A stretch of 64,000 nt of DNA from NCBI GenBank assembly GCA_943356525.1, contig CALRFG010000006.1:4024-68023 (forward strand), in the 5' to 3' direction. The notes under the pieces are model-generated. The model was not told the origin of the DNA, did not search any database, and worked only from the letters and a program-made list of their open reading frames with translations. The first letter of the stretch is position 1, and every line of letters begins with the position of its first letter. This stretch comes from Candidatus Nomurabacteria bacterium (GTDB lineage: Bacteria; Patescibacteriota; Minisyncoccia; Phycocordibacterales; CAIZLB01). This document shows, piece after piece, positions 37,719 to 52,296 of the stretch. The translations under genes and the position numbers were made by a program.

Positions 37719-39884
37719 TTATTTGCTTGCGTTTAATATCTCAACTTTCTTTTCTGGCATTAATTCTACGATTTTATTTGCTATTATTTTTTTTGCTTTT
37801 TTAACTGTAAATTGATTCCAAAATTCTGCTTTAAGTATAAGATCATAATTATAATTTTTATAACCGTCTACCAGAGCTTGAGCTATGTCTGTAACACTTT
37901 TATTGTCATAGTTATTTTTTTTAGCAATCTCAGATAACACACCTATGTAGTAACCATACGAAGTAATGTTTTGTGGTGCATCTTCATATGCTTTTTTTAA
38001 TAAAGCCATTGTTCCATCTAGATCCCCTTTGTTCATAAGTATAATTGCTTTATTATATGCAAAACTTTGTTTTTCTGGTGAAAGTTTATACGCCCTATCA
38101 GCATAAACAAGTGCTTGATCTATGATACCAAGACTTCTATAAGTATTTGATACGAAATAATTATATCTTGCATCTTGATTTTTTTCTTTATCATATTCAT
38201 CAGTCAAATTTTTATATAGCACAGAAATATTTTGCTTTGTTGTACTGGAAACATTTTCTTGTGTCAAAATCTTTGGTAATAAAGTTGAAAGCTGTTCGAA
38301 AGCTTCAAACTTTCCTGAACCACCAAGTTCTAACACATCTTTAAAATCTTTATCTATGGTATTTGTAACACCTTTTGTTTGTAAACCCTTAAGTATACCT
38401 ATTAACTTTGTATTTTGAGTATAAGGTTTCAGTATAGTTTGATAACCAATATATGAAATAGCTATCAGAGAAATTATTCCTATTAAGATAATTTTATTTT
38501 TATCATCTTCAGTTAGGTTTTTATGTTCTATTTTTTCATTTCTGTCATGTGTATATCTATCATTTATATATGCCAGTATTAGGAAAAATAATACATAACT
38601 TGAAAGGTTGTCGAACACAAATATGTTATGGATAAAATACGCTGCCAATAGTCCAAGCCATACAGATCTCTCTATGATAGTAAGACCTGCACGCTTCGAA
38701 AATATAAAATACAAAGCTGTGACAAATAGAGACAAATACCCAAGTAGTCCTAGTACACCCGCTGCGGTCAACCAGTCCATAAACACATTATGCGATCTAT
38801 CAAACCACTGTTCTTGAGCATACATACCTGGATTGTAGTATTTTGCAAAAACATAACCAAAGTTATCTTGTCCCCAACCTAGAAGTGGTTTTTCTTTCAC
38901 ACCTTCATATGCCATGTGCCATATTAGAGTACGAGCTTCTCCTTGATTTTTCAAAACTGACTTATAATCTGTAGTTATAAGTGCTGCAAAACGATTTAGC
39001 TGATTTGAGTTTTTTACAAAATCAGATTGTTTGAAAATACCTAAAAACATAACTGAAACGACAACAGTAGTTAAGAATCCTATAGCTCCAAAACGGATGA
39101 TTTTATTTTTCTCCTTCCATGCAAGATAAACTGACGCAAGTATAAGACCTACAACCAATCCAACAAATGCTCCTCTAGTTCCTGTCTTCAATAGTATAAA
39201 TAGATTGAATGCAGCAACTCCTATATATAGAGCGATTGAAACCCAGTTATTTGTGTTTAGTTTTTTGGCCGACTTATGTTCACCAGACTCAAGAAGCTCT
39301 GCCTCCCTATTTCCTCTAAAAATCATAGCAGCTCCTAAAAGACCAAAAAATACATGTATAAGGGCATATACGCCCAAGTAAGATGAGTTACCTAGGTGGC
39401 CTGATATACGATCAGCTGCTCCAGTCGAATTACCTAAAGCCTGTATACCAATAAAAATAGATATGACTATTGATATGTTCAACAAATATATCCACTCGCG
39501 ACGTCTTATAGCAGAAGCGGAGATAATAAATAAACCCGCCATGTAAAGCATGGTTACCAAACCTTCCATACGTTCAAAATTTGACCATAGACTACGTGTA
39601 GGGTTTACACTGTTTAACATTGCTAAAAACAAAATAAACATAAAACCGCCCATAGCATATAGCATGACTGATTTTTTAGGACGAGAATCTTTATCAATAA
39701 GTGCAAGAGCAATATATGATACAGATGATAATGCAATCATAAGCCTCATAAAAATTGCTTTTCCGGTTATATATGGAAAGAATAATTCTCCAGAAAAAAT
39801 AAAAGGTGTTAATAATGTAGAGCCAATCAATATTATAGTGATAACTCTTAGTATTTTTTTAATGTCTTGTATTTGTGTATTCAT
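37719..39884 (-). CDS. O-antigen ligase/polymerase-like (Wzy_C) membrane protein with C-terminal TPR repeats
   Basis: About 10 TM helices including LKTGTRGAFVGLVVGLI (Wzy_C-like). C-terminal TPR-like repeats of about 250 aa. Confidence 0.55.
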   Translation of the reverse strand: MNTQIQDIKKILRVITIILIGSTLLTPFIFSGELFFPYITGKAIFMRLMIALSSVSYIALALIDKDSRPKKSVMLYAMGGFMFILFLAMLNSVNPTRSLWSNFERMEGLVTMLYMAGLFIISASAIRRREWIYLLNISIVISIFIGIQALGNSTGAADRISGHLGNSSYLGVYALIHVFFGLLGAAMIFRGNREAELLESGEHKSAKKLNTNNWVSIALYIGVAAFNLFILLKTGTRGAFVGLVVGLILASVYLAWKEKNKIIRFGAIGFLTTVVVSVMFLGIFKQSDFVKNSNQLNRFAALITTDYKSVLKNQGEARTLIWHMAYEGVKEKPLLGWGQDNFGYVFAKYYNPGMYAQEQWFDRSHNVFMDWLTAAGVLGLLGYLSLFVTALYFIFSKRAGLTIIERSVWLGLLAAYFIHNIFVFDNLSSYVLFFLILAYINDRYTHDRNEKIEHKNLTEDDKNKIILIGIISLIAISYIGYQTILKPYTQNTKLIGILKGLQTKGVTNTIDKDFKDVLELGGSGKFEAFEQLSTLLPKILTQENVSSTTKQNISVLYKNLTDEYDKEKNQDARYNYFVSNTYRSLGIIDQALVYADRAYKLSPEKQSFAYNKAIILMNKGDLDGTMALLKKAYEDAPQNITSYGYYIGVLSEIAKKNNYDNKSVTDIAQALVDGYKNYNYDLILKAEFWNQFTVKKAKKIIANKIVELMPEKKVEILNASK

Positions 39885-39921: not shown

Positions 39922-41226
39922 ATGAATAAACTTAAACAAAGGATAAAAGAAAAATGGGGTGAGGCTGGGTTTCAGAGGTATTTTCGGAATACGGGGTGGA
40001 TGTTTGGAGCTAGAGTGTTGACACTTTTAATTAATCTTTTTGTAAGTATATTCATAGCCAAACAGCTTGGACCAGAACAGTATGGTACTTTTTCTTTTAT
40101 AATAAGTTTTGTGAGTATTGCAGGTTTTACCCTATTTGCAATTGATTCACTTGTAATGAAGAGGCTAAATGAAGATAAAGATAGTACTGATAAGATATTA
40201 GGTTCAGCTCTTGCTATAAAGTTTGTAAATAGTTTATTTACCATAACCACAGCAACACTCGCAGGTTTAATTTTTGCAAATACATCAACTACAGTATTGA
40301 TGATATTTGTATATTCAACCTTTACAATATTTCAATCTTTTGGGGTTATAGATTTTTACTTTAAAATAAATGTACAAAATAAACCAATATCAATATTGAG
40401 TATTGTAGTAGTATCACTTTCATCTGTAATCAAGATCGGGATATTATACTATAATCTACCTTTGGTATACCTATTGTTATCTTATGTATTAGATCATATT
40501 ATAGGTGCAATTGGATATATATATTTATACAAAAAATACGTTGGTAGTATTTTCAATTTTAGTGTAGAAAAAAATATTGTAAAAGGTTTAATAATAAAAT
40601 CCTGGCCTTTAACCATATCAGCATTGGCAACCACTATATATATAAGAATTGACCAGATTTTTATAAAAGTTTTACTTGGATCAGAATCACTGGGTTTATA
40701 TGCAATAGCAGTAAGATTCTCGGAAGTATGGTTTATTATATCCGAAGTAATGTGTCTTTCTTTATTGCCTGCAATACTAAATGCAGAAAAAACTAATAAT
40801 GAATTATTTTTAAGCAGAAGTAAGAGGTTGTATAGCCTGTTGTTTTATTCAGCAATAGGTGTATGTATAATAATGTATGTAATTTCACCTATACTTATAA
40901 ATACACTGTACGGTGAAGCCTATAGTCAAAGTGTAAATATCCTGAGACTATATATATGGTCTATAGTAGGATTTTTTATAGCAACAGCTTTAAATCAGTT
41001 TTTGTTTGCCAAAGGTAAACTTAAAACCATTCTTTTTATGAATATCATAGGAATGTCTTTAAGTGTTGCGCTTAACTATATTTTGATACCCATTTTAGGA
41101 ATACAGGGTGCTATTTTGGCAAATATAGTTGCATATACATTGCCATTTATAATAATATTATCTTTAAAAAACATGAGAGAGCAAAGAATTACATTTATCA
41201 AAGCTGTAGTAAACCCTTTTACTTAA
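39922..41226 (+). CDS. Polysaccharide flippase, Wzx/MOP superfamily
   Basis: 434 aa, about 12 TM. Typical oligosaccharide flippase architecture. Confidence 0.6.
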   Translation: MNKLKQRIKEKWGEAGFQRYFRNTGWMFGARVLTLLINLFVSIFIAKQLGPEQYGTFSFIISFVSIAGFTLFAIDSLVMKRLNEDKDSTDKILGSALAIKFVNSLFTITTATLAGLIFANTSTTVLMIFVYSTFTIFQSFGVIDFYFKINVQNKPISILSIVVVSLSSVIKIGILYYNLPLVYLLLSYVLDHIIGAIGYIYLYKKYVGSIFNFSVEKNIVKGLIIKSWPLTISALATTIYIRIDQIFIKVLLGSESLGLYAIAVRFSEVWFIISEVMCLSLLPAILNAEKTNNELFLSRSKRLYSLLFYSAIGVCIIMYVISPILINTLYGEAYSQSVNILRLYIWSIVGFFIATALNQFLFAKGKLKTILFMNIIGMSLSVALNYILIPILGIQGAILANIVAYTLPFIIILSLKNMREQRITFIKAVVNPFT

Positions 41227-41229
41227 AAT

Positions 41230-42297
41230 ATGGACAAAAATAAAAACAAAAAAGTTGTTTCCATAATATGGGGTTATCATACCCACATGTACAACCTTGC
41301 GCCTGAAGAAAATTATCATTTACATTTTTTAAAAGTAGCCAAAGAATCAGGTTTCAAGCCTTACGCTATAGTCAAAGGATCTAAAGAAAATATGGAAAAT
41401 GATCCTAACTTTGACAAAGATATAGAGGTTATTGATTATAAAAATATCTTTCAGTTTTTATTCTTAATCATAAAATTTTCATTTCAAAATACTCTGTTTT
41501 ATGTAAATAGTTACGAGTGGCAGTCTTTCATGGTTCCCTTTATAGCCAAAAAAACCATATTCATGGCACATACACAACCAAAAAGACAAACCGAGAAAAA
41601 ACAAATGATTCAAAACTTTGTTTATAGATTTTTTACAGCAATAAGATTAAACAATGACACAGAAAAAGATTTTTTGTTAGAACAAGGAACTGATGAAAAA
41701 AAACTGCATGTTGTACCCCTTGTGGTTTCGCAAAGTGTTTTTAAACTTACAAATACTGATATAGGCACAAGAAAGGATTTGGTGTATTTTGGTAACGTTA
41801 CAGAGAAAAAAAATTTACCTACAATATTAAAAGCTTTTGAATTAGTAAAAGAAAAATACCCTGAGATTAAGTTGAATATTATTGGTAAGATACATGATGA
41901 ATCAATCAATGAAGCTATAGATAAATCAGTATTCAAAAAAGATATAGTAAGGTATGGTTTTTTACCTAACAGTACCCTGATTGATGAGATGAATAGAAAT
42001 TTAATATATTTAAATTCATCATTAGATGAAGGTCAATGTGTGGCAGTGTATGACGCAGCTTTGTGTGGATGTGTTCTTTGTTTGCCTAACATAATGTCTT
42101 TTATTGGAGTTTTTAAAGATGTAGCCTTATTTCATGATATATATGACCATGAAAAACTAGCTGAGAACATATTATTTTACGTTAATAACCCTGATATAAT
42201 AAAAAATTATAATAATAAATGTATTAATATGATAAAAAAAGATTATTCCATAGATAGAGTAGAAAATAAATTAACAACACTATTGTCAAAATTTTAA
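41230..42297 (+). CDS. Glycosyltransferase, GT-B fold (group 1 / GT4-like)
   Basis: C-terminal group-1 GT region (..FGNVTEKKNLPTILKAFE..IIGK.. EGQCVAVYDAALCGCV). Confidence 0.55.
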   Translation: MDKNKNKKVVSIIWGYHTHMYNLAPEENYHLHFLKVAKESGFKPYAIVKGSKENMENDPNFDKDIEVIDYKNIFQFLFLIIKFSFQNTLFYVNSYEWQSFMVPFIAKKTIFMAHTQPKRQTEKKQMIQNFVYRFFTAIRLNNDTEKDFLLEQGTDEKKLHVVPLVVSQSVFKLTNTDIGTRKDLVYFGNVTEKKNLPTILKAFELVKEKYPEIKLNIIGKIHDESINEAIDKSVFKKDIVRYGFLPNSTLIDEMNRNLIYLNSSLDEGQCVAVYDAALCGCVLCLPNIMSFIGVFKDVALFHDIYDHEKLAENILFYVNNPDIIKNYNNKCINMIKKDYSIDRVENKLTTLLSKF

Positions 42298-42306
42298 AAT
42301 TAAAAT

Positions 42307-43233
42307 ATGAATAAATTAATATTTAATATCAAAAAAATACTTAAACCTGTATTAAGAAAAATTTCAAATAAAAAAATAAGAGGTGTTTTTATAAATATAA
42401 ATGATCAATTTAATAAACACACATATAATAGTAAAGTTATATTGAAATACTTTGATCAATTTAATTTGAAAGAAATTGATCCTGAAAAATTAGAAGTAAT
42501 AAACTTTTTAAGAAATAATAAGATAAATCTCTTTCCTTATGATTTCATAAAAAAATACAATAGTTCCGATATAAAAATATTCGACGGAGAAAATGGATTA
42601 AAATACGGCCTGTCTAATAATAAAAAAATCTTCTTTAAGAGAAGTTGTTCAGAAAATGAGGCTCAACAGATATTATCTGCTTTAAATTTAGAACAAGACA
42701 ATGAGTCACCTCACAGATATTTAAATGACGATTTTACTGTAGATGAAAATGATATTGTATTAGATATTGGTGCAGCTGAAGGTTATTTTTCATTATTAAT
42801 TGTTGAAAAAGTTAATAAAATTTATATTTTTGAATCAAATCCTGAATTAATAGAAGCATTAAATACCACATTTGAACCATGGAAATATAAGGTTTTTATA
42901 GTAAATAAATACGTATCAAATAAATCAGACGAAATATTCACAACAATTGATGATTTTTTTAAAGATAAAGAACCACCAACATTTCTAAAGGTTGATATTG
43001 AAGGTGCAGAGTATGATTTTATACAAGGTGCCAAAAAACTTTTATCAACAAAAAATCAAATGAAAATTATATTAGCAGCTTATCATAAACATAATGATGA
43101 AATTATACTAAACGAAGAATTAAAAAAATATGGTTTTAAAACTAATTTTTCAAAAGGCTATATGTTATCTATTTGGGATGGTGTTATAAAAGAACCTTAT
43201 TTAAGGAGAGCGTTAATACGAGCACAAAAATGA
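42307..43233 (+). CDS. FkbM-family SAM-dependent methyltransferase
   Basis: DIGAAEGYFS motif and KVDIEGAEYD (FkbM signature). Confidence 0.65.
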   Translation: MNKLIFNIKKILKPVLRKISNKKIRGVFININDQFNKHTYNSKVILKYFDQFNLKEIDPEKLEVINFLRNNKINLFPYDFIKKYNSSDIKIFDGENGLKYGLSNNKKIFFKRSCSENEAQQILSALNLEQDNESPHRYLNDDFTVDENDIVLDIGAAEGYFSLLIVEKVNKIYIFESNPELIEALNTTFEPWKYKVFIVNKYVSNKSDEIFTTIDDFFKDKEPPTFLKVDIEGAEYDFIQGAKKLLSTKNQMKIILAAYHKHNDEIILNEELKKYGFKTNFSKGYMLSIWDGVIKEPYLRRALIRAQK

Positions 43234-44018
43234 TTAAAAACTATATAAATGTAATAATACCAATTATCAAAATATGCAAAAACTGGCATGTAATAATTTT
43301 TAGTAAATTATTTAATTTAAAAATAAAAAACATAGAACTTAAAGATGGGGTTAAATTTAGTGTAGATGGTATAATACCTAAAGCAGATCTATCTATGCTT
43401 GTAGAAACTTGGTTTAATCACGATTACACACCTTTAGGGTTTGAGATTGGTGAAAAAGATTTAGTAATAGATATAGGTGCAAATAATGGTTTTTTTTCTA
43501 TTTTTGCAGCAAAAAAAGCCACAAGTGGACATGTTATATCTTTTGAACCTGTACCTGAATTAGTAAATAAAATCAAAACAAACATAGACTTAAATAAAAT
43601 ATCAAATATTAAACTGGAGCAATTGGCTGTTTCTAACAAAAAAGGACATATTGAGTTTTATATTTCAAAAACCCACAACGGTTGTCACAGTCTGTTTAAA
43701 AGAAGTGCTTCAGATGATAAAATCATAATCAATACAATAAAACTTGAAGATTATTGTTTTGAAAACAAGATACAAAAAATTAATCTTTTAAAAATGGACT
43801 GTGAAGGTGCTGAATATGATATTTTTAATTCCCTATCAGCAAAATTTTTAAAAAATAATATTGAAAAAATTTCAATGGAATATCATGATATTATAGGGGA
43901 GCACAAGCATGGAGAAATTATAAACCAACTAAAAAATAACGGTTTTTCAACAAAAGTTTTAGGTGATTCAAACAGTGGTTATATATATGCATTAAACGAT
44001 AATTTAATTAATAAATAA
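43230..44018 (+). CDS. FkbM-family methyltransferase (ORF-track start 43173 is probably too early; likely ATG at 43230, MIKNY)
   Basis: DIGANNGFFSIFAAKK and KMDCEGAEYDIF. Confidence 0.65.
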   Translation: MIKNYINVIIPIIKICKNWHVIIFSKLFNLKIKNIELKDGVKFSVDGIIPKADLSMLVETWFNHDYTPLGFEIGEKDLVIDIGANNGFFSIFAAKKATSGHVISFEPVPELVNKIKTNIDLNKISNIKLEQLAVSNKKGHIEFYISKTHNGCHSLFKRSASDDKIIINTIKLEDYCFENKIQKINLLKMDCEGAEYDIFNSLSAKFLKNNIEKISMEYHDIIGEHKHGEIINQLKNNGFSTKVLGDSNSGYIYALNDNLINK

Positions 44019-44019
44019 A

Positions 44020-44865
44020 ATGATATCTAAAATCTGGAATAAATCAAAAAAAATAATACCTAACAATATCCACATTTTGGTTAAAAATATATATATTAAA
44101 ATATTCTTATTAATATTTCCAAAAGGTTATTTTAAAAAATTTAATTTTTTAACTATTAAATTTTTAATAAAAGTAAATCCCAAAAACGGACCGGTAGACA
44201 ATGTTATATTATTTGATGGTGTTTTAGATGGAGAGCATTTAGAGAATATTAAAAATATTTTAAGACCGGGTGATACTTTTATTGACGTGGGTGCCAACAT
44301 TGGCCAGTATAGTTTATTTGCATCGTACTGTGTTGGTGTAAAAGGCAAAGTTATAGCATTTGAACCTGTAAAAAATATTTTTAATCAATTTAATGAGAGT
44401 ATTAAAAAAAATTATATAGATAACATAACTTTATACAACAAAGGATGTGGGGATGAAAATAAAAATATATTAATTAATAAAAAAGATGGTGACCTGGGCG
44501 GGTCTAGTATTATAGAACTTGGTTTTGGATCTAAAAAAACAACAGAATTGGTTGAAATAGTTATTTTGGATGATATTTTAATTAATGAAAATAAAGTAGA
44601 TTATATTAAAATAGATGTTGAGGGTTTTGAATATGAGGTTTTACTAGGTTTGAAAAAAACTATTGAAAAATGCAAACCTAGATTATTAATAGAGTATTCA
44701 CCTCATATATATAAGCAAAATAAACCAGAATATCGTGAATTAATTCTAAAATATCTTTTAGACTACAAATACGATATTATAGATCTATCAGATACAAAAA
44801 AAGTTGAATCAGAAAATCATTATAAAGATAAAGATATAGTAATGACTTATTTACTTTGTAAATAG
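44020..44865 (+). CDS. FkbM-family methyltransferase
   Basis: DVGANIGQYSLFAS and KIDVEGFEYEVL. Confidence 0.65.
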   Translation: MISKIWNKSKKIIPNNIHILVKNIYIKIFLLIFPKGYFKKFNFLTIKFLIKVNPKNGPVDNVILFDGVLDGEHLENIKNILRPGDTFIDVGANIGQYSLFASYCVGVKGKVIAFEPVKNIFNQFNESIKKNYIDNITLYNKGCGDENKNILINKKDGDLGGSSIIELGFGSKKTTELVEIVILDDILINENKVDYIKIDVEGFEYEVLLGLKKTIEKCKPRLLIEYSPHIYKQNKPEYRELILKYLLDYKYDIIDLSDTKKVESENHYKDKDIVMTYLLCK

Positions 44866-44904
44866 TATAAAGCAAAACCAAATTTATTAAATAAATACAA
44901 ACTC

Positions 44905-45642
44905 ATGAATAATACACAAAATAACACAAATTTAGCATCTAAAGAATATTGGGATGCGGGTTACGGAAATTTTAAATTCTTTGCTATGCCTAAATCATAC
45001 CCTATATGTAAAGCAATATATGAGTATTTTCCGAAAACTGACAATAAAACTATATTTGAAATTGGTATATTTCCTGGCAGATTCATATATCATTTTGGTA
45101 AATTAGGTTATGAAATAAACGGTATAGATCAAACACCTTATTTAAATGAAATGATAAATTGGTTTAAAACAGAAAATTTTAAAACAGGATATTTTGACGG
45201 AGGAGATTTACTACAAATGAACACAGATAAAAAGTACGATGTAGTTTTTTCTTCTGGTTTCATTGAACATTTTGAAAATTTTCAAGATATAATAAAAATA
45301 CACGCAGATTTGACAAAGCAAGGTGGAATGATTTACATAACTGCTCCAAACTTCGCAGGATCAATACAAAAAATTTTACATAAAACCTTTGATAGAGAGA
45401 GTTTTGATAAACACAATCTCTTGGCCATGGATGTTAAAAAGTGGGAAGATGTTATAGTAAAAGAAGGTTTTGAAATAGTGAAATCTGGATATTTCGGTGG
45501 TTTTGATTTTTGGATAAGTAGTAAAAATAATAACATTTTCAAAAAAATACTAGGAAAAATATTAACAAAAATAACACTAAGATTTATACCGTCTTCGAGA
45601 ATTTATTCACCTGAAATAATATTAATAGCTAAAAAGAAATAA
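44905..45642 (+). CDS. Class I SAM-dependent methyltransferase
   Basis: Motif I-like FEIGIFPGRF. Rossmann-fold MTase length. Confidence 0.5.
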   Translation: MNNTQNNTNLASKEYWDAGYGNFKFFAMPKSYPICKAIYEYFPKTDNKTIFEIGIFPGRFIYHFGKLGYEINGIDQTPYLNEMINWFKTENFKTGYFDGGDLLQMNTDKKYDVVFSSGFIEHFENFQDIIKIHADLTKQGGMIYITAPNFAGSIQKILHKTFDRESFDKHNLLAMDVKKWEDVIVKEGFEIVKSGYFGGFDFWISSKNNNIFKKILGKILTKITLRFIPSSRIYSPEIILIAKKK

Positions 45643-45646
45643 ATAT

Positions 45647-46441
45647 ATGGGAGTAGAATACAATGCATTAAAAGCTTTATCGTTAATTGAATCAAAAAAT
45701 AAATCACTAAAAGACCTAGCAACAATAGGTAGACAAAGCTTGCAAATAAAAGCTAATAAAATATCTTTTTTTAATTTATCGAAAAAAGACAAAGAGGGAT
45801 TAAATAAAGAAAAATTTGCCGATAGGTTGTTTAAGATGATCGGTTTTAATACAGTTCACTCATATGATTTTTCAAATTATGAAGACGCTGATTTTGTACA
45901 TGACATGAATACACCTATAGAAGATATACATAAAGAAAAATACGATATCGTTTTTGATGGTGGTAGTTTAGAACATATATTCAACTTCCCTATAGCTATA
46001 AAAAATTGTATGGAGATGGTTAAAACCGAAGGATATTTTATGTCAGTAACAACTTGCAATAACTTCAGTGGTCATGGTTTTTATCAATTCTCCCCTGAAT
46101 TATTTTTTAGAGTTTTTACAGAAGAAAATGGATTTGAGATGGAAGGTGTTTACATAAGTGAAAAAAATAAATGGTATAAAGTCAATGATCCAGAATCTAT
46201 AAAAAGCAGGGTAACTTTCAAAAACAACTATGAGACATATATTATAGTTATAGCTAAAAAAATAAAAATGGCTAATATATTTGAAAAAACACCACAACAA
46301 AGTGACTATGTAGAATGTTGGAAAAAAGAAGAAGAACGTAAAGAAAAAAATGTTAAAAAACTGATTAGAAAAACAAAACAAATGTATAATAAATTATTTA
46401 TAAAATACGATAAAAAGTTTTTTACAAAAATTAAAAAATAA
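45647..46441 (+). CDS. Putative class I methyltransferase-like protein
   Basis: YDIVFDGGSLEHIFNFPIAIKNCMEMVKTEGYF resembles MTase motif II/III. Weak. Confidence 0.35.
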   Translation: MGVEYNALKALSLIESKNKSLKDLATIGRQSLQIKANKISFFNLSKKDKEGLNKEKFADRLFKMIGFNTVHSYDFSNYEDADFVHDMNTPIEDIHKEKYDIVFDGGSLEHIFNFPIAIKNCMEMVKTEGYFMSVTTCNNFSGHGFYQFSPELFFRVFTEENGFEMEGVYISEKNKWYKVNDPESIKSRVTFKNNYETYIIVIAKKIKMANIFEKTPQQSDYVECWKKEEERKEKNVKKLIRKTKQMYNKLFIKYDKKFFTKIKK

Positions 46442-46445
46442 AAAT

Positions 46446-48059
46446 ATGAAAATAGCCATTCTATATGTATGTACTGGTAAGTATGAAATCTTTTGGAAAG
46501 ATTTCTACCTAAGTGCAGAAAAATATTTTGCAACAGATGCAGAAAAGCACTATTTTGTTTTTACGGATAAAAATGAAGTTTTTGACCAAAAAAATAACCC
46601 GAGAATACACAAAATAGACCAACAGGTTTTAGGTTGGCCATATGACACCCTTAAAAGATATGAGATGTTTTCTAATCAAGGATCAGAACTTGAAAAATAT
46701 GACTATATAGTATTTTTTAATGCCAATTTGTTATTCTTAGAAAATGTTACAGCTGAAGAATTTTTACCAACAAAAGACAGTGAGGATATACTAGCTTGCT
46801 TACATCCTGTTTTTTATCAAAAAGATAAAAGAACTTATACTTATGAAAAAAATCCCCTATCCAAAGCTTATATAGATATAAATCAAAATAAAGATTTTTT
46901 CTATTATCAGGGAGCTATAAACGGTGGTAAAACAAAACCTTTTCTAGAGGTTATGAAAAAACTTCAGAAGAATATAGATGAGGATTTGGAGAAAAATATT
47001 ATATCAGTATGGTGGGACGAATCACATTGGAATAAATATTTGGATGAAAATAGACAAAATCTAAAAGTTATATCCCCTTCTTATCTATATCCAGAAAATT
47101 TTAACTTAACATTACAACCAAAATTATTTATAAGAAACAAAGATCAATTTGGTCATCTTGAAAGCATAAGAAATATAAAAATAAAATTATCCAAAACTTT
47201 ATTAAAAAATATTTACAATAGGGTTAAAAATAAAGTTACATATTCTTTGTTTAAAATATACGATAATATATTTTATAATAAAAATAATATATTTAAGTTG
47301 AAAGAGATAGTGTCAAATGATAATAGGAATATATCTGTGATAATAACATATTATAATAGACATGAGACTATACACAAAGCACTGTATCATATATTAAATG
47401 ATAATAGAGTTGATGAAATACTAATAGTGGACGACTGTTCTAAGGCTGAATCTGTAAAATACCTAGAGGAATTTATAAATAAATTAAATAATAAAAAAAT
47501 AAAACTTATAAAAAATGAGGTTAATATGGGTATGTATAAAAATAAAATATATGCTATATCTCAAGCTAAAAATGATTGGATTATATTATTGGATTCAGAT
47601 AATACTATAACCAAAAAATATCTTGACTCTATATATAATGAAAAAGATTGGGATATAAATACAATGTATTGCCCATCATTTGCATGGCCTTTAATAAATA
47701 ATGAAAGTCTTTCCAATAAAACATATACAATGAAAGACATAAAAGATGTACTTATACATGATTCTAAAGATATGAAGCACTTCTTAAATCTTGGGAATTT
47801 CTTTGTTAATAAAAATAAATTTGAAGAATCAATAAAAGATTATAAAGAATGCATACCATATGCGGCTGATTCAATATTTATAAATTATACTTGGCTATGT
47901 AATAATGGAAAATTATGTATACCCAAAAATTGTAGATATATACATAGGGTTAATTCAGATAGTACATGGAAAATAGAAAATGTTAACTCGGCTGTTAAAT
48001 TTGAAAATATAAAAAATGCAATATTAACATTAGAGACAAATCCTAAAAAGATAATCTAA
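46446..48059 (+). CDS. Bifunctional glycosyltransferase: N-terminal GT6 (blood-group A/B-type alpha-1,3-Gal/GalNAc transferase-like) fused to C-terminal GT2
   Basis: GT6 hallmarks: IAILYVCTGKYEIFWKDFY, bacterial NxN motif in place of DxD (FFNANLLF), LHPVFY, YYQGAINGG, VWWDESHWNKYL. C-terminal half has a GT2 fold (ISVIITYYNR..IVDDCS..LLDSDN). Confidence 0.8.
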   Translation: MKIAILYVCTGKYEIFWKDFYLSAEKYFATDAEKHYFVFTDKNEVFDQKNNPRIHKIDQQVLGWPYDTLKRYEMFSNQGSELEKYDYIVFFNANLLFLENVTAEEFLPTKDSEDILACLHPVFYQKDKRTYTYEKNPLSKAYIDINQNKDFFYYQGAINGGKTKPFLEVMKKLQKNIDEDLEKNIISVWWDESHWNKYLDENRQNLKVISPSYLYPENFNLTLQPKLFIRNKDQFGHLESIRNIKIKLSKTLLKNIYNRVKNKVTYSLFKIYDNIFYNKNNIFKLKEIVSNDNRNISVIITYYNRHETIHKALYHILNDNRVDEILIVDDCSKAESVKYLEEFINKLNNKKIKLIKNEVNMGMYKNKIYAISQAKNDWIILLDSDNTITKKYLDSIYNEKDWDINTMYCPSFAWPLINNESLSNKTYTMKDIKDVLIHDSKDMKHFLNLGNFFVNKNKFEESIKDYKECIPYAADSIFINYTWLCNNGKLCIPKNCRYIHRVNSDSTWKIENVNSAVKFENIKNAILTLETNPKKII

Positions 48060-48738
48060 GTACAGCCAATACTCTCACCCACACACCGATCAATCTCATC
48101 TTAATATTACTTTTACGAGTAACTTGATTTTGATGTATACGATAATCAATCAAAAATTCTGACAAATTGTGTCCCTTGCCTATTTTTAGAATTCTAGTCC
48201 ATAATTCATAATCTTCATTGTGTTTAAAATTTTTATAAGGACCAGAAATATTTAGAGTTTTTTTTCTTAAAATAACAGATGGGTGTATAAATGGATTATG
48301 TAATATGGCATATTTTTTTATATCTTTATGATTTATTGGCGGATATTTTAATTCACCAATAATATTATTATTTTCATCTATTGTTCTAGCCCATGAGCCA
48401 CAAATTGAAACATCAACATTTTCATCCATATATTTAACTAATGTTTCAAATCTATTAAAAGCACAAATATCATCTGCATCTATACGTATAACATACTCGC
48501 CTTGAGATTCTTTTATGCCGAGATTTAAAGCCTTAACTATTCCACCATGATTTTGATTTAATATTTTTATACGATTATCATTAAAACTTTTCAAAATATC
48601 ATATGTATTATCTGTAGAACCGTCATCTATTACAATAAATTCAAAATCAAAAAAAGTCTGAGATAGGACACTTTCTATTGTTTTTCTTATATATTTATCA
48701 CCGTTATAAACTGGCATTATCACTGAGATCTTTGTCAT
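48043..48738 (-). CDS. Glycosyltransferase family 2
   Basis: ISVIMPVYNGDKYIRKTIESVLSQTF..FIVIDDGSTDNT and DADD motif. Confidence 0.8.
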   Translation of the reverse strand: MTKISVIMPVYNGDKYIRKTIESVLSQTFFDFEFIVIDDGSTDNTYDILKSFNDNRIKILNQNHGGIVKALNLGIKESQGEYVIRIDADDICAFNRFETLVKYMDENVDVSICGSWARTIDENNNIIGELKYPPINHKDIKKYAILHNPFIHPSVILRKKTLNISGPYKNFKHNEDYELWTRILKIGKGHNLSEFLIDYRIHQNQVTRKSNIKMRLIGVWVRVLAVLRLSF

Positions 48739-48772
48739 ATTTAGATTGTATCAGATATGATATAATAGATAA

Positions 48773-49684
48773 ATGAGATTAGTTATATGGGGATTAAAAA
48801 ATGTATATCATACACATAGACATATACACAAAGCTTTTTATGAAAATACAAAGAGGCTTGGTTATGATGTTATATGGGTTGAAGATGATAAAAAGAATCA
48901 AAAGTATATAAAAACCGGAGATATTATTATAGCCTCAGAAGTGCATGGGAAAATGATACCGAAGAAAAATGTATTTGAGGATTATAATTTACCAGTGCGT
49001 AATGATATAAAATATTGTCTACATAATTATAGTGATACATTTAAAATCAAACTGGATAAAAATAATTATATAAATCTGGCTGTATATCAAAATGAGGCCG
49101 ACAAATCAGATATAAAAATAGATGAGTTGAGATATTTTAACTCAATCACAAAGACATTGTATCAACCTTGGGGTACAGATCTATTATTTAAAGATTTTAA
49201 GAAACCCATTTTCAATAAAAATAGATTTGTGTTTTGGATAGGTAGTATATGGAATAATGAACAAAATCAAGGCAATATTAAACAAATAGATGAGTTGAAA
49301 AAAGTCTTAAGTGAGAATAATCTAAAATTTAAACAGCTTAGATTTATACCTGATTTTTTAAATGTTTTTTTTATTCGCCGATCCAGAATTGCTCCTGCGA
49401 TAGCTGGGCAATATCAAGTAAATATAAATTACTTACCATGCAGAATGTTTAAAAATATATCTTACGGTCAACTCGGTATTACCAATGTACAAAAATTTTC
49501 AGATATATTGGGGGATAAATTTATTATAAATAATAATCAAAATACTGAAAGTGTAATAAATAAAGTATTAAATCTATCTAGAGAAGAATATAAAAAAGAA
49601 GTTTTGCTACAACAAGAAAAAATTAAAAATTATACATATAAAGAATCTATAGAAAATATAATACAATGCCTAAACCAACACTAA
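48773..49684 (+). CDS. Hypothetical protein in the glycan locus (possible glycosyltransferase)
   Basis: No recognisable motif. Context only. Confidence 0.3.
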   Translation: MRLVIWGLKNVYHTHRHIHKAFYENTKRLGYDVIWVEDDKKNQKYIKTGDIIIASEVHGKMIPKKNVFEDYNLPVRNDIKYCLHNYSDTFKIKLDKNNYINLAVYQNEADKSDIKIDELRYFNSITKTLYQPWGTDLLFKDFKKPIFNKNRFVFWIGSIWNNEQNQGNIKQIDELKKVLSENNLKFKQLRFIPDFLNVFFIRRSRIAPAIAGQYQVNINYLPCRMFKNISYGQLGITNVQKFSDILGDKFIINNNQNTESVINKVLNLSREEYKKEVLLQQEKIKNYTYKESIENIIQCLNQH

Positions 49685-50478
49685 TCTCAATCACCGGCGG
49701 TCTTGGTAATCAACTATTCCAATACGCCCATGGTCGTAAACTCGAAATCATAGATAAAAAATCGATAGTATTTAACACATCATTTTTCACAAATCCGCAT
49801 GCAAAACAGAACTCACAAAAAGATACTCCTCGCCCATTTCTCTTGGACCGATTTAACATAAATCCTCAAGCCAAATTTTCACCAAACCCCGAAAACGGCA
49901 TCATCAAAATTTTCAAAAAAATACTTTACAAAATCACAGGTAACTATCCCCTGTATCAATCTGAAAGATATTTCGCATCAATCAAAGATACAATCTTAAA
50001 AGAATTTACCCTAAAAAACCCTCTTTCAGACCAGGCTCAGAATGCATATAACAGTATCAGACTACAAACAAATTCTGTGTCTCTTCATATTCGTCGTGGT
50101 GACTATGCAAAAAATCCTCATGCACTTAAACATCATGGATTGATAGAGTTGGATTATTATAAAAAAGCAACCGAATTCATAAAAACAAAAATAAACAATC
50201 CTCTTTTTTTTATTTTCTCAGATGATATAGAATGGGTAAGAAAAAATCTTAAAATTGAAAATTGTGTTTTTATATCAAATCCTAAAATAGCCGAAACTGA
50301 AGAAATGTATCTTATGAGTCAATGTTCACATAACATAATAGCCAACTCAACTTTTTCATGGTGGGGAGCATACCTGAATCAAAACCAAGGTAAGATAGTT
50401 GTCGCCCCTAAACAATGGACAGTAAAAAAAACTGCAGACGAGTTAGAGATAATACCTAAAAACTGGATTCAGATCTAA
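49666..50478 (+). CDS. Alpha-1,2-fucosyltransferase, GT11 family
   Basis: GT11 motifs HIRRGDY, FIFSDD and NSTFSWWGAYL. Confidence 0.85.
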   Translation: MPKPTLISITGGLGNQLFQYAHGRKLEIIDKKSIVFNTSFFTNPHAKQNSQKDTPRPFLLDRFNINPQAKFSPNPENGIIKIFKKILYKITGNYPLYQSERYFASIKDTILKEFTLKNPLSDQAQNAYNSIRLQTNSVSLHIRRGDYAKNPHALKHHGLIELDYYKKATEFIKTKINNPLFFIFSDDIEWVRKNLKIENCVFISNPKIAETEEMYLMSQCSHNIIANSTFSWWGAYLNQNQGKIVVAPKQWTVKKTADELEIIPKNWIQI

Positions 50479-50642: not shown

Positions 50643-50930
50643 TTAAATCTCACCCCTTAATTCAATCTTAGTATTTTCCAAAGACTCCATCATCGAATCA
50701 GCTAAATCAACCATCTTGGCTATCATACGATTTTCTAAAGAAACCATATCAGTTCTAATGCTTGATACATCTTGTTTTAGTACTGCCACATCTTGTTTTA
50801 AATTTGATATATCAACCTTCATCACTGATATATCACCTTTCATACCAGAAAGATCTTCTCTTACGTAAGAGATCTGTGTGTCTATGTGAGTTTTTATCCC
50901 TTCAAAGGCTTGTTTCATTTCTTGATTCAT
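50643..50930 (-). CDS. Coiled-coil hypothetical protein; reading frame stays open for 55 more codons beyond its TAA (to 50475)
   Basis: Heptad-like repeats. See findings for the in-frame stop. Confidence 0.35.
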   Translation of the reverse strand: MNQEMKQAFEGIKTHIDTQISYVREDLSGMKGDISVMKVDISNLKQDVAVLKQDVSSIRTDMVSLENRMIAKMVDLADSMMESLENTKIELRGEI

Positions 50931-51180: not shown

Positions 51181-52296
51181 ATGACCATAGAAAATATACC
51201 CCAAACACCAGCACAAATATCCTCTAAAACAGCCCTTCAAAGCCCTAAAATAGGCTCTATAAACACACTTCGCTTCATAGCTGCTATGATGGTCATTTTT
51301 TATCATTATAGCTTTACTTTCTATCATGGAGACTTATCTTATGTGGATATACCTGTACTTCGATACTTATCCCAATACGGTTATCTTGGGGTTGATATAT
51401 TCTTTATAATATCTGGTTTCGTTATAGCTCTTTCAGCCGAAGGTCGAAATGCTTATGCTTTTTTTAAATCCCGTATCGGTCGTCTCTACCCTGTTTTTTG
51501 GATATCTGCAATAATCACAACTTTATTTCTCATATTCGGCGGAAATCTTATATCTTCAGAAATGTCGTTGACTAGATTTTTAACTAACCTGACTATGATA
51601 CCGACCATAATTTGGAGCAAAGAAACTATAGATTTTCTAGATGGAGCCTATTGGACACTTGCTATAGAGATGAAGTTTTATTTTGTAATTTTACTATTAT
51701 TAGTTTTGAAACAATTTAAAAGAATAGAGACTTTTACTATACCTTTGTCCTTACTGATATTATTGTCTGCTGTGTTTTTAAATATTAAATTCGACTCGGA
51801 TTTAATATGGATACCAAATTTCATAGCTGGAGTAATTTTCTATAAAATATATAAAAATGGTTTAAATACTTGGCGTATATTTGCCTTAATAAATACTTTT
51901 ATAGCCTCTTTAATATTTGCATCAAATAGACTACCTTATCTATCTGAAGGTTATAATGCAGTATTCAAATCAAGTATTGTTACTTTATATATACTATTTT
52001 CGTATATCTTTTTTCTTTTAATATCTTTAAATAAAATAAAAATACCTAACAATAAATATATAAATATTCTCGGTCTTTTGACTTATCCTTTATATCTTTT
52101 GCATCAACAAATAGCTCGTATAATATTTAAGTATTCTGAGATACATAATATACCTTTATTCTTCTCATTTACCTTTATATTAATATTTATATTTTTTATA
52201 TCTTTCTTAGTTCACAAGATATTCGAGCGTCGTGGTAAAATAATTCTTGATAAAACTCTTGATAAGATTACACCTAAAGTCCTAAAACATTTTTAA
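51181..52296 (+). CDS. Acyltransferase family 3 (OafA-like O-acyltransferase) membrane protein
   Basis: N-terminal LRFIAAMMVIFYHYSF motif. About 10 TM helices. Confidence 0.7.
   Translation: MTIENIPQTPAQISSKTALQSPKIGSINTLRFIAAMMVIFYHYSFTFYHGDLSYVDIPVLRYLSQYGYLGVDIFFIISGFVIALSAEGRNAYAFFKSRIGRLYPVFWISAIITTLFLIFGGNLISSEMSLTRFLTNLTMIPTIIWSKETIDFLDGAYWTLAIEMKFYFVILLLLVLKQFKRIETFTIPLSLLILLSAVFLNIKFDSDLIWIPNFIAGVIFYKIYKNGLNTWRIFALINTFIASLIFASNRLPYLSEGYNAVFKSSIVTLYILFSYIFFLLISLNKIKIPNNKYINILGLLTYPLYLLHQQIARIIFKYSEIHNIPLFFSFTFILIFIFFISFLVHKIFERRGKIILDKTLDKITPKVLKHF

What the first reader, a model, noticed from the sequence alone, without database searches (positions are those of the whole stretch)
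46446..50478. GT6 (blood-group A/B-type) plus GT11 alpha-1,2-fucosyltransferase in one glycan locus: predicted ABO/H-antigen-like surface glycan
The 537-aa protein's N-terminal half has the GT6 hallmarks, including the bacterial NxN variant (FFNANLLF), HPVFY, and the WDESHWNKYL block conserved in mammalian A/B transferases. It is fused to a GT2 domain. Two genes downstream lies a textbook GT11 enzyme (HIRRGDY, FIFSDD, NSTFSWWGAYL). GT6 enzymes act on Fuc-alpha1,2-Gal acceptors made by GT11 enzymes, as in the E. coli O86 wbnI/wbnK pair. The pairing therefore predicts a blood-group-like epitope. That would be notable in what looks like a reduced-genome bacterium, and a GT6-GT2 fusion is unusual.
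Basis: partly seen in the sequence, partly recalled or inferred. Interest (0 to 1): 0.6.

Follow-up and report, generated by a model that had tools for sequence, protein, structure and literature searches.

The report
Blood-group-type glycan genes in Parcubacteria
A tiny uncultured (CPR/Parcubacteria) bacterium carries an enzyme closely related to the human ABO blood-group transferases, fused to a second sugar transferase and next to an H-antigen-type fucosyltransferase, so it probably builds a blood-group-B-like sugar motif on its surface; this gene pairing is known from other bacteria, but the fused architecture and the host lineage have not been described.

Summary
The gene at 46446-48059 encodes a 537-aa protein with two domains. 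Its N-terminal domain is a GT6 enzyme of the metal-independent bacterial (NxN) type. It scores above the Pfam and NCBIfam cutoffs, matches B. ovatus BoGT6a at E=5e-64 (45% identity), and its model superimposes on BoGT6a with TM 0.90-0.94. Its C-terminal half is a GT2 domain with an intact DxD motif. A complete GT11 gene lies at 49666-50478.

- Every BoGT6a catalytic residue and every residue that accommodates 2'-fucose is conserved.
- GT11 lies within two genes of the fusion in 5 of 5 divergent loci, and within 8 kb of GT6 in 65 of 80 species-level loci.
- 22 protein clusters are natural GT6-GT11 fusions.

The donor-specificity tetrapeptide is QGAI, like human B-transferase MGAF and unlike BoGT6a AGGL. 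I therefore predict a Gal (B-type) epitope rather than a GalNAc (A-type) one; this is inference only.

The GT6-GT2 fusion is not a one-off. In CPR bacteria, GT6 is usually the first module of a two-domain enzyme.

The unannotated 303-aa gene between the small GT2 and GT11 is a sequence-orphan glycosyltransferase with a GT-B fold.

Caveats: five adjacent methyltransferases may mask the epitope. No GDP-fucose genes and no initiating transferase lie in the window. There is no biochemistry.

The parts
46446..48059 (+). Gene for the 537-aa bifunctional GT6-GT2 glycosyltransferase
   Evidence: ORF. Pfam and NCBIfam hits. AF2 model has pLDDT 87.7 and pTM 0.86: two GT-A domains joined by a long helix. 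18 homologous fusion clusters at 44-93% identity.
46446..47171 (+). GT6 domain (aa 1-242), metal-independent NxN type. Key residues: N92-A-N94; acceptor residues H120, V122, T132, Y153, W189; catalytic E192; I229; K232; R242.
   Evidence: BoGT6a 4AYJ at E=4.9e-64 with 45% identity. Foldseek TM 0.90-0.94 and rmsd 1.7-1.9 A. Residue mapping, against the roles given in PMC3516806 and PMC3961637.
46908..46919 (+). Donor-specificity tetrapeptide Q155-G-A-I158. It is equivalent to BoGT6a A155GGL158, human GTA L266GGF and human GTB M266GAF.
   Evidence: Alignments. The role of this tetrapeptide is described in PMC3516806 section 7.
47172..47315 (+). Inter-domain linker (aa 243-290), including the long helix at aa 250-276
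   Evidence: Secondary structure of the AF2 model.
47316..48056 (+). GT2 (GT-A, inverting) domain. D329-D330 and the D383-S-D385 (DxD) motif are invariant in 15 fusion homologues.
   Evidence: Pfam PF00535 at 87 bits. Invariant columns. Only generic GT2 hits in the PDB.
48043..48738 (-). Stand-alone GT2 glycosyltransferase (231 aa). It is convergent with the fusion gene and overlaps its 3' end by 17 bp.
   Evidence: Pfam PF00535 at 132.7 bits. Conserved on the opposite strand in L004, L005 and L007. A relative accompanies GT6 in 64 of 80 loci.
48773..49684 (+). 303-aa glycosyltransferase with a GT-B fold, from a family with no Pfam, NCBIfam or PDB sequence match
   Evidence: No family hit. AF2 pLDDT 93.9 and pTM 0.90. 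Foldseek hits are all GT-B enzymes: Gtf3 3QKW (E=3e-8), GtfC, SenB, PimA, OtsA and T4 AGT. 694 clusters at 50% identity. Found fused to GT2, GT9, WavE and methyltransferases.
49666..50478 (+). GT11 alpha-1,2-fucosyltransferase-family gene (270 aa). It overlaps the previous gene by 19 bp. Motifs: GGLGNQLFQY (aa 11-20), HIRRGDY (aa 141-147), FIFSDD, NSTFSWWGAYL.
   Evidence: Pfam PF01531 at 123.2 bits. Motif coordinates. Conserved next to GT6.
39922..42297 (+). Wzx-type flippase (39922-41226) and a GT4 glycosyltransferase (41230-42297), at the start of the same tightly packed gene array
   Evidence: Pfam PF01943/PF13440 and PF00534. Gaps between genes are 39 bp or less.
42307..46441 (+). Five tandem methyltransferase genes: three FkbM-family (42307-43233, 43173-44018, 44020-44865), one class-I SAM methyltransferase (44905-45642), and one methyltransferase-like 264-aa gene (45647-46441)
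   Evidence: Pfam PF05050, PF05575, PF13489 and PF08241, plus weak PF13847/PF08242. TIGR01444. The last two genes sit directly upstream of the fusion in L004 and L007 as well.
37719..39884 (-). 721-aa membrane protein with a Wzy_C (O-antigen ligase/polymerase) domain and a TPR-like C-terminus, divergent from the array
   Evidence: Pfam PF04932 at 74 bits. Conserved between SecA and the glycan array in L005 and L006. Whether it is a polymerase, a ligase or an O-oligosaccharyltransferase is not resolved.
51181..52296 (+). Acyltransferase_3 membrane protein, a candidate glycan O-acyltransferase
   Evidence: Pfam PF01757 at 98 bits.

Best explanation
The segment is the epitope-building core of a Wzx-dependent surface-glycan locus (about 37.7-52.3 kb) in a Parcubacteria (CPR) genome.

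Proposed order of events on an undecaprenyl-phosphate-linked oligosaccharide:
1. GT2-type and/or GT-B/GT4 enzymes lay down the backbone, including a beta-linked galactose. Candidates are the stand-alone GT2, the GT2 domain of the fusion and the 303-aa GT-B enzyme.
2. The GT11 enzyme adds L-fucose alpha-1,2 to that galactose, giving an H-type disaccharide.
3. The metal-independent GT6 domain then adds an alpha-1,3-linked hexose to the same galactose. This gives a branched histo-blood-group-type trisaccharide, X-alpha1,3-(Fuc-alpha1,2)-Gal-beta. The donor tetrapeptide QGAI (GTB-like Gly-Ala, not BoGT6a/GTA-like Gly-Gly) and the bulkier Val at the 235-equivalent position suggest X is Gal (B-type), not GalNAc.
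4. Fusing GT6 to GT2 would couple two steps of the same assembly line. The methyltransferases and the acyltransferase then decorate the glycan.
5. Wzx flips the glycan, and the Wzy_C protein polymerises it or ligates it to its carrier.

Shown here: family membership, intact active sites, conserved linkage, and fusion proteins. Inferred: sugar identities, linkages, order of steps, and surface display.
For: - GT6 identity and an intact active site. Pfam and NCBIfam scores are above cutoff. BoGT6a matches at E=4.9e-64, and the model superimposes with TM 0.90-0.94. N92/N94 (NxN), D191, catalytic E192, K232 and R242 are conserved. The last two replace the metal ion in BoGT6a (PMC3961637; residues).
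- Acceptor residues tied to 2'-fucosyl acceptors in PMC3516806 are kept. A1 is His120 (Gln in the fucose-independent alpha3GT). A7 is Ile229 (Trp356 in alpha3GT blocks fucose). A2 is Val122, not Trp. Thr132, Tyr153 and Trp189 are also kept.
- GT6-GT11 linkage. GT11 lies within two genes of the GT6-GT2 fusion in the window and in four loci at 46-60% identity. It lies within 8 kb of GT6 in 65 of 80 species-representative loci by non-iterative phmmer. 22 clusters are single-polypeptide GT6-GT11 fusions.
- GDP-fucose genes in relatives. gmd (TIGR01472, 556 bits, above cutoff) and an fcl homologue (493 bits in L012, just under the 500-bit cutoff; 320 bits in L023) sit beside GT11. L022 and L032 show the same pair by phmmer only.
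- Donor prediction. The tetrapeptide falls into recurring classes. Gly at position 157 (AGGx, MGGx, CGGx) occurs in 58 of 79 loci and Ala (mostly QGAx) in 17 of 79. The window is in the Ala class, as is human GTB.
- Assembly-line context. A flippase, GT4, two GT2 modules, a GT-B enzyme, a Wzy_C protein, methyltransferases and an acyltransferase lie in one array with gaps of 39 bp or less.
Against: - There is no biochemical or glycan-structure data for any CPR GT6 or GT11.
- The window contains no gmd/fcl, no galE and no initiating phosphoglycosyltransferase. The rest of the genome could not be examined.
- His190, which H-bonds the donor sugar in BoGT6a, is Trp in this protein and in its closest relatives only. 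The donor could therefore differ from Gal or GalNAc.
- The QGA = Gal rule is transferred from the mammalian GTA/GTB pair and from BoGT6a/alpha3GT mutagenesis. I could not test it against the one characterised bacterial Gal-transferase, WbnI.
- Position 266 is Gln, not Met.
- The 65/80 co-occurrence figure has no matched control set of glycan loci that lack GT6.
- The five methyltransferases could modify the fucose or galactose hydroxyls.
Confidence: 0.6

Rival explanations
1. GT6 and GT11 work on different residues of the glycan, or GT6 uses an unfucosylated or non-galactose acceptor. In that case no branched blood-group-type trisaccharide is formed, and the two families merely share a locus.
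For: Specificity is inferred from sequence alone. The A2 position is Val rather than Gly or Ser. The donor-contacting His190 is replaced by Trp in this subclade. The fusion partner here is GT2, not GT11, so the step directly coupled to GT6 may be a different one.
Against: All characterised bacterial GT6 enzymes named in the papers I read require Fuc-alpha1,2-Gal: BoGT6a, WbnI, H. mustelae BgtA and the P. acanthamoebae GT6 (PMC3516806, PMC4202792). The fucose-accommodating residues His120 and Ile229 are conserved. Alpha3GT-type Trp residues are absent from this protein, and Trp never occurs at A7 in the loci examined (one Chitinophagales locus, L055, has Trp at A2). GT6-GT11 fusions and very tight linkage (median gap 4 bp) argue for consecutive steps.
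Confidence: 0.2
2. The trisaccharide core is built, but it is O-methylated and/or O-acylated by the five methyltransferases and the acyltransferase. The displayed structure would then not be serologically A, B or H-like, so 'blood-group antigen' would be a misnomer for a methylated environmental glycan.
For: Five methyltransferase genes lie directly upstream in the same array and an Acyl_transf_3 gene lies downstream. 18 clusters are GT6-FkbM methyltransferase fusions, which implies methylation right next to the GT6 step in relatives. One FkbM paralogue matches V. cholerae RfbT; from my own knowledge, RfbT is a terminal-sugar methylase.
Against: Which sugar is methylated is unknown. Methylation could cap a different residue or act as a chain terminator. 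L006 combines a methyltransferase with an ABC transporter, an arrangement which, from my own knowledge, is typical of terminal capping.
Confidence: 0.35
3. The fucosylation branch does not operate in this organism because it has no GDP-fucose supply, and GT11 is either a relic or uses another donor. The locus would then make a non-fucosylated glycan.
For: No gmd, fcl or initiating transferase occurs in 64 kb. CPR genomes are metabolically reduced (my own knowledge).
Against: All the genes are intact. GT11 keeps every hallmark motif and is conserved in this position at 46-93% identity of the neighbouring fusion. Some CPR relatives encode gmd and fcl inside the equivalent locus. Only a small fraction of the genome was visible.
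Confidence: 0.1

Closest known systems
Bacteroides ovatus BoGT6a (PDB 4AYJ/4AYL/4CJ8), a metal-independent GT6 that makes blood-group A antigen
   Same: - 45% identity over the whole catalytic domain, with the same fold (TM 0.90-0.94).
- NxN in place of DxD.
- The same catalytic Glu192 and the same C-terminal Lys/Arg that replace the metal.
- The same fucose-accommodating His (A1) and Ile (A7).
   Different: - BoGT6a was characterised and crystallised as a GT6 catalytic domain (residues 1-246). Here GT6 is fused through a roughly 45-residue helical linker to a GT2 domain.
- The donor tetrapeptide is QGAI, not AGGL.
- Position 124 is Val, not Gly, and position 190 is Trp, not His.
- The host is a CPR bacterium, not a gut Bacteroides.
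E. coli O86 O-antigen enzymes: WbnI (GT6, alpha1,3-GalT), WbnK/WbwK (GT11, alpha1,2-FucT), WbnJ (GT2) and WbnH (GT4), which make a blood-group-B-like O-unit
   Same: The same set of GT families (GT4, GT2, GT11, GT6) together with a Wzx flippase and a Wzy-type protein in one locus. The predicted Gal (B-type) donor matches WbnI's activity. The GT6 and GT11 roles are from PMC4202792. The GT4 and GT2 assignments are from my own knowledge of Yi et al. 2005.
   Different: - Orthology was not tested, because I could not retrieve WbnI.
- Here GT6 is fused to GT2.
- An extra sequence-orphan GT-B enzyme and five methyltransferases are present.
- There are no GDP-fucose genes or initiating transferase in view.
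- From my own knowledge, the organism has no outer membrane or LPS, so the carrier of the glycan is unknown.
Human ABO transferases GTA and GTB (GT6) acting after FUT1/FUT2 (GT11)
   Same: The same two families in the same predicted order. The WDESHxNKYL block and the catalytic Glu are shared. The tetrapeptide has the Gly-Ala pattern of GTB, MGAF.
   Different: About 28% identity. The human enzymes are metal-dependent (DxD) type-II Golgi membrane proteins. This enzyme is NxN (metal-independent by homology), cytoplasmic, and fused to GT2. Position 266 is Gln rather than Met.
Natural GT6-GT11 fusion proteins of Patescibacteria and Planctomycetota (for example P0026, P0042, P0067; loci L035, L077, L081), which appear to be undescribed
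   Same: Homologous GT6 N-terminal module (40-51% identity), similar total length (about 520-550 aa), and the same kind of glycan locus.
   Different: In those proteins the partner domain is the fucosyltransferase itself. In the window the partner is a GT2 domain, and GT11 is a separate gene three positions downstream.

Membership tests
CAZy GT6 / Pfam PF03414 / NCBIfam NF041524 | Profile-HMM score above the curated cutoff | tested here: met
   PF03414 at 105.7 bits against a cutoff of 25. NF041524 at 275.9 bits against a cutoff of 250.
CAZy GT6 / Pfam PF03414 / NCBIfam NF041524 | GT-A fold that superimposes on solved GT6 structures | tested here: met
   The AF2 model against BoGT6a gives TM 0.90-0.94 and rmsd 1.7-1.9 A. 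Against human GTA/GTB and bovine alpha3GT it gives TM 0.65-0.71.
CAZy GT6 / Pfam PF03414 / NCBIfam NF041524 | Catalytic Glu (BoGT6a Glu192, GTA Glu303) inside the W-x-D-E-S block | tested here: met
   W189-W190-D191-E192-S193. D191, E192 and S193 are invariant in 15 fusion homologues.
CAZy GT6 / Pfam PF03414 / NCBIfam NF041524 | Retaining alpha-1,3 transfer of Gal or GalNAc from a UDP-sugar | not testable with these tools
   This needs an enzyme assay.
Metal-independent bacterial GT6 clade (BoGT6a type) | NxN replaces DxD, and a C-terminal Lys and Arg bind the diphosphate | tested here: met
   N92-A-N94, K232 and R242 align with BoGT6a N95/N97, K231 and R243 (roles from PMC3961637). Metal independence itself was not assayed.
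Fucosyl-galactoside-specific GT6 (GTA, GTB, BoGT6a) as opposed to alpha3GT-type | His at A1, no Trp at A2, and a small or aliphatic residue (not Trp) at A7 | tested here: met
   H120, V122 and I229. The criteria are from PMC3516806. Val at A2 differs from the Gly or Ser of the characterised enzymes, but it also occurs in Chitinophagales GT6.
B-type (UDP-Gal) rather than A-type (UDP-GalNAc) donor class | Ala at the GTB-268 / BoGT6a-157 equivalent, and a bulky residue at the 266/155 equivalent | tested here: inconclusive
   The QGAI tetrapeptide has the Gly-Ala of GTB (MGAF), but Gln rather than Met. I could not validate the rule on a bacterial Gal-transferase. The His190-to-Trp change is unexplained.
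CAZy GT11 / Pfam PF01531 (alpha-1,2-fucosyltransferases) | Profile-HMM score above the cutoff, plus the HxRRGDY GDP-fucose motif and the C-terminal motifs | tested here: met
   123.2 bits against a cutoff of 23.9. HIRRGDY at aa 141-147, plus FIFSDD and NSTFSWWGAYL. No NCBIfam model matched and no PDB relative was found by sequence. The motif definitions are from my own knowledge.
CAZy GT11 / Pfam PF01531 (alpha-1,2-fucosyltransferases) | Fuc-alpha1,2-Gal product | not testable with these tools
   This needs an enzyme assay.
CAZy GT2 (both the fusion's C-terminal domain and the 231-aa protein) | Pfam PF00535 above cutoff, with a DxD motif | tested here: met
   87.1 and 132.7 bits. DSD at aa 383-385 is invariant in the fusion family. 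Sugar specificity is undetermined.
E. coli O86-type blood-group-B O-unit gene set | GT4 + GT2 + GT11 + GT6 + Wzx + Wzy in one locus | tested here: met
   All six families lie between 37719 and 50478. This is agreement at family level only; orthology was not shown.
E. coli O86-type blood-group-B O-unit gene set | GDP-fucose synthesis genes and an initiating phosphoglycosyltransferase available | tested here: not met
   None in the 64-kb window. They are present inside the equivalent loci of some CPR relatives (L012, L022, L023, L032; L007 has a PGT). The rest of this genome could not be searched.

The most novel reading that the evidence does not exclude
Free-living or episymbiotic CPR bacteria of lakes and groundwater display genuine histo-blood-group-type trisaccharides. 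They make these with a previously undescribed set of modular bifunctional GT6 enzymes (GT6-GT2, GT6-GT11, GT6-methyltransferase). The A-type versus B-type donor motif (AGGx versus QGAx) has switched repeatedly within bacterial lineages. That would be a bacterial counterpart of the ABO polymorphism, presumably driven by phage or host-cell recognition rather than by mimicry of mammals. The GT6-GT11 fusions would be single-polypeptide synthases converting a galactoside into an A or B antigen.
Probability: 0.35. Interest if true: 0.65.

Novelty: new variant of a known kind. Interest (0 to 1): 0.5.

Why it matters
GT6 and GT11 enzymes make the ABO and H antigens. Bacterial versions are thought to be a source of natural anti-A and anti-B antibodies, and to have been exchanged with vertebrates by horizontal transfer (PMC3516806).

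If CPR bacteria build such motifs, three things follow:
- The environmental reservoir and the evolutionary history of GT6 would be much broader than the roughly 30 Gram-negative species discussed in the structural literature.
- Natural two-domain enzymes would be available for enzymatic synthesis of blood-group glycans.
- There would be a concrete, testable handle (lectin or antibody staining) on the almost unknown cell-surface chemistry of CPR bacteria, which matters for how they attach to hosts.

The sequence-orphan GT-B family is a candidate new glycosyltransferase family.

Tried and rejected
- Retrieving E. coli O86 WbnI to test the Gal/GalNAc tetrapeptide rule. Both papers that would show it (PMC2757216, PMC2988317) are not held. 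Sensitive blastn of three GT6 genes against all complete E. coli genomes found nothing.
- Promoter and terminator scans of 37-52.5 kb were no better than shuffled sequence: 106 promoter-like sites against 111 expected.
- NCBIfam could not say whether the Wzy_C protein is a polymerase, a ligase or an O-oligosaccharyltransferase. It gave no specific equivalog for either GT2 module, the GT4 or the methyltransferases.
- A strict HxRRGD[YF] regular expression undercounted GT11 neighbours (47 of 80). I use the non-iterative phmmer count (65 of 80) instead. I checked the jackhmmer result (66 of 80) for drift, because fusion proteins were in the target set.
- Pfam at E<=1 over 32 members, and a profile search of the PDB, gave no sequence-level link for the 303-aa family.
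- Considered and rejected: pseudogene or chance ORFs (intact, conserved, active-site residues invariant); phage origin (housekeeping genes flank the locus and synteny with other CPR genomes is conserved); and mimicry of a mammalian host as the rationale (the related MAGs carry lake, bog and groundwater sample names).

Full report
**Observation.**
- The 537-aa product of 46446-48059(+) matches Pfam Glyco_transf_6 at 105.7 bits (residues 8-221) and NCBIfam NF041524 at 275.9 bits, above its cutoff of 250 (residues 1-232).
- It also matches Pfam Glycos_transf_2 at 87.1 bits (residues 297-414).
- Against PDB sequences the best hit is Bacteroides ovatus BoGT6a, at E=4.9e-64 over residues 1-242 with 45% identity. 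The human ABO transferases follow at about 1e-24.
- The 270-aa product of 49666-50478(+) matches Pfam Glyco_transf_11 at 123.2 bits.
- Two genes lie between them: a 231-aa GT2 on the minus strand (48043-48738) and a 303-aa gene with no family hit (48773-49684).

**Organism and setting.** The window is contig CALRHT010000004.1 of MAG GCA_943359505.1. Its GyrA belongs to a 90%-identity cluster that includes a 'Candidatus Parcubacteria bacterium' protein. The nearest homologues of the fusion are labelled Paceibacterota, Nomurabacteria or Minisyncoccia.

The finding sits inside a larger glycan locus:
- a Wzy_C-domain membrane protein (37719-39884, minus strand);
- a Wzx-type flippase, a GT4, three FkbM methyltransferases, a class-I methyltransferase, a methyltransferase-like gene and the GT6-GT2 fusion, all on the plus strand with gaps of 39 bp or less;
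- the convergent small GT2;
- the 303-aa gene overlapping GT11 by 19 bp;
- an Acyl_transf_3 gene at 51181-52296.

GC content is 0.265 across 39922-50478 against 0.331 for the rest of the window, as is usual for variable glycan loci.

**The GT6 domain in detail.** The BoGT6a structure papers assign roles to individual residues (PMC3516806, PMC3961637). Asn95 and Asn97 form the NxN motif that replaces DxD. Glu192 is catalytic. Lys231 and Arg243 bind the diphosphate in place of the metal. His122 (A1), Gly124 (A2) and Ile228 (A7) determine whether a 2'-fucosylated acceptor fits. In the fucose-independent alpha3GT these three positions are Gln, Trp and Trp.

The window protein has N92/N94, E192, K232, R242, H120, V122 and I229, plus T132, Y153 and W189. 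It therefore has a complete active site of the fucosyl-galactoside-accepting type. An AlphaFold model of the full protein (pLDDT 87.7, pTM 0.86) superimposes on BoGT6a with target-normalised TM 0.90-0.94 and rmsd 1.7-1.9 A. It shows a long helix (aa 250-276) leading into a second GT-A domain. In the GT2 half, D329-D330 and D383-S-D385 are invariant across 15 fusion homologues, so both modules look active.

**Donor prediction.** Mutagenesis cited in PMC3516806 identifies BoGT6a A155-G-G-L158 as critical for choosing UDP-GalNAc over UDP-Gal. The equivalents are LGGF in human GTA, MGAF in human GTB and HAAI in alpha3GT. The window has QGAI.

Across 95 homologues and 79 species-level GT6 genes, position 157 is Gly in most (58 of 79, as AGGx, MGGx or CGGx) and Ala in 17 of 79 (mostly QGAx). 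Both states occur within CPR, Neisseria and Burkholderiales. Val at the 235-equivalent position is also bulkier than the Gly of the GalNAc enzymes.

I therefore predict Gal, a B-type epitope. This is an inference. I could not check the rule against WbnI. His190, a donor-sugar contact in BoGT6a, is Trp here and only in the closest relatives, and I cannot explain that.

**Is GT6 functionally coupled to GT11?** Three independent lines say yes.
1. Synteny. The fusion has GT11 within two genes in the window and in four further loci whose fusions are 46-60% identical, even though the other neighbours and even the export system differ (L006 has an ABC transporter).
2. A wider survey. 241 GT6 relatives were found in 185,579 species-representative genomes. 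Of the 80 best loci, 65 have a GT11 homologue within the flanks of 8 kb or less by non-iterative phmmer, and several of the 15 without one are truncated contigs. The median gap in the motif-confirmed subset is 4 bp. I have no matched control set, so this is a strong association rather than a calibrated enrichment.
3. Fusion proteins. 22 protein clusters carry GT6 and GT11 on one polypeptide. Such fusions also occur in Planctomycetota loci.

In addition, two CPR GT6 loci carry gmd (TIGR01472, 556 bits) and an fcl homologue (493 bits in L012, just under the 500-bit cutoff; 320 bits in L023) next to GT11. Two more loci show the same pair by phmmer only. This agrees with the literature: the characterised bacterial GT6 enzymes act on Fuc-alpha1,2-Gal.

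**The fusion is recurrent, not unique.** At least 18 clusters share the GT6-GT2 architecture. Others join GT6 to GT11 (22 clusters), to FkbM methyltransferases (18), or to an unannotated domain of about 290 aa with GT-A-like ADNSS and FIDHD motifs (22). Stand-alone GT6 proteins were a minority among the hits. I found no paper in the held library that describes GT6 in Patescibacteria or any GT6 fusion.

**The 303-aa gene.** It has no Pfam, NCBIfam or PDB sequence match, even when 32 members are scanned at E<=1. It nevertheless has 439 close homologues and 694 clusters at 50% identity. Its model (pLDDT 93.9) matches only GT-B glycosyltransferases: Gtf3, GtfC, SenB, PimA, OtsA and T4 AGT, with E down to 3e-8. 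Elsewhere it is fused to GT2, GT9, WavE and methyltransferase domains. Among the GT6 loci it occurs only in those labelled CPR or 'uncultured bacterium' (8 of 26, against 0 of 54). It is most likely an additional glycosyltransferase in the pathway.

**Mechanism and limits.** The best-supported model is an undecaprenyl-linked assembly line:
1. a backbone containing beta-Gal is built;
2. GT11 adds Fuc alpha-1,2;
3. GT6 adds an alpha-1,3 hexose (predicted to be Gal);
4. methyltransferases and the acyltransferase decorate the glycan;
5. Wzx flips it;
6. the Wzy_C protein polymerises it or ligates it to a carrier.

Still unknown or missing: the sugar identities; which enzyme makes the beta-Gal; what is methylated; the carrier molecule, since (from my own knowledge) these bacteria have no LPS; and, within the 64 kb, any GDP-fucose genes or initiating transferase. 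Heavy methylation could make the product serologically unlike A, B or H. The related MAGs come from lakes, bogs and groundwater, so mimicry of a mammalian host is an unlikely selective reason.

**Verdict.** The GT6/GT11 pairing is a known kind of system (E. coli O86, B. ovatus, H. mustelae). The CPR host, the modular GT6 fusions, the predicted B-type donor motif and the orphan GT-B enzyme make this a new variant rather than a new kind. Interest is moderate at 0.5: a glycobiologist would want the enzymes tested, but nothing here overturns current understanding.

Noticed in passing
proteins P0019-P0085; loci L035, L062, L077, L081: In CPR bacteria, and in some Planctomycetota, GT6 is mostly the N-terminal module of two-domain enzymes of 520-560 aa. 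The partner domains are GT11 (22 clusters), FkbM methyltransferase (18), GT2 (18), or an unannotated domain of about 290 aa with GT-A-like ADNSS and FIDHD motifs (22).
   Followed up: partly
window 48773-49684 (+); proteins P0117-P0404: A sequence-orphan family with a GT-B fold: 694 clusters at 50% identity and no Pfam, NCBIfam or PDB sequence match. It also occurs fused to GT2, GT9, WavE and methyltransferases. It is a candidate new glycosyltransferase family.
   Followed up: yes
loci L008-L087, GT6 position 155-158: The donor-specificity tetrapeptide varies within lineages. Examples are AGGI versus QGAI in Neisseria (L048 versus L061), in Burkholderiales (L041 versus L031) and in CPR. This resembles an A/B-type polymorphism among bacteria.
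   Followed up: partly
L012 11300-13593, L022 10518-12526, L023 5089-7109, L032 12235-14230: gmd and fcl (GDP-L-fucose synthesis) lie directly beside GT11 in four CPR GT6 loci, but are absent from this window.
   Followed up: yes
window 47013-47015 (aa 190 of the GT6-GT2 fusion): His190, which contacts the donor sugar in BoGT6a and is His in nearly all homologues, is Trp here. The same change occurs only in the closest relatives (P0001-P0003, L009; L027 has FWDE). I cannot explain it.
   Followed up: partly
window 42307-46441 (+): Five methyltransferase genes in tandem, three of them FkbM paralogues. One of these also matches V. cholerae RfbT. This implies a heavily O-methylated glycan.
   Followed up: partly
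window 39922-50478: A low-GC island: 0.265 against 0.331 for the rest of the window. This is typical of exchangeable glycan loci. The locus content differs between relatives while the flanking genes are conserved (SecA and Wzy_C upstream; TrwB-like, Peptidase_S11, M50 and RRF downstream).
   Followed up: partly
window 50643-50930 (-): A 95-aa ORF with repeated 'D(I/V)SxLKQDV' heptad-like units. It is called as a gene in L001 and L002, has no Pfam hit, and sits in the 702-bp gap between GT11 and the acyltransferase.
   Followed up: no
window 52274-54031 (-): A TrwB/TraG-like coupling ATPase with a long, low-complexity, charged C-terminal tail. It is conserved immediately downstream of the glycan locus in L004 and L006.
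   Followed up: no
window 14053-16275 (-): A 740-aa protein that combines PKD, GDSL esterase, fibronectin-III and peptidoglycan-binding domains. It may be a wall-anchored esterase.
   Followed up: no
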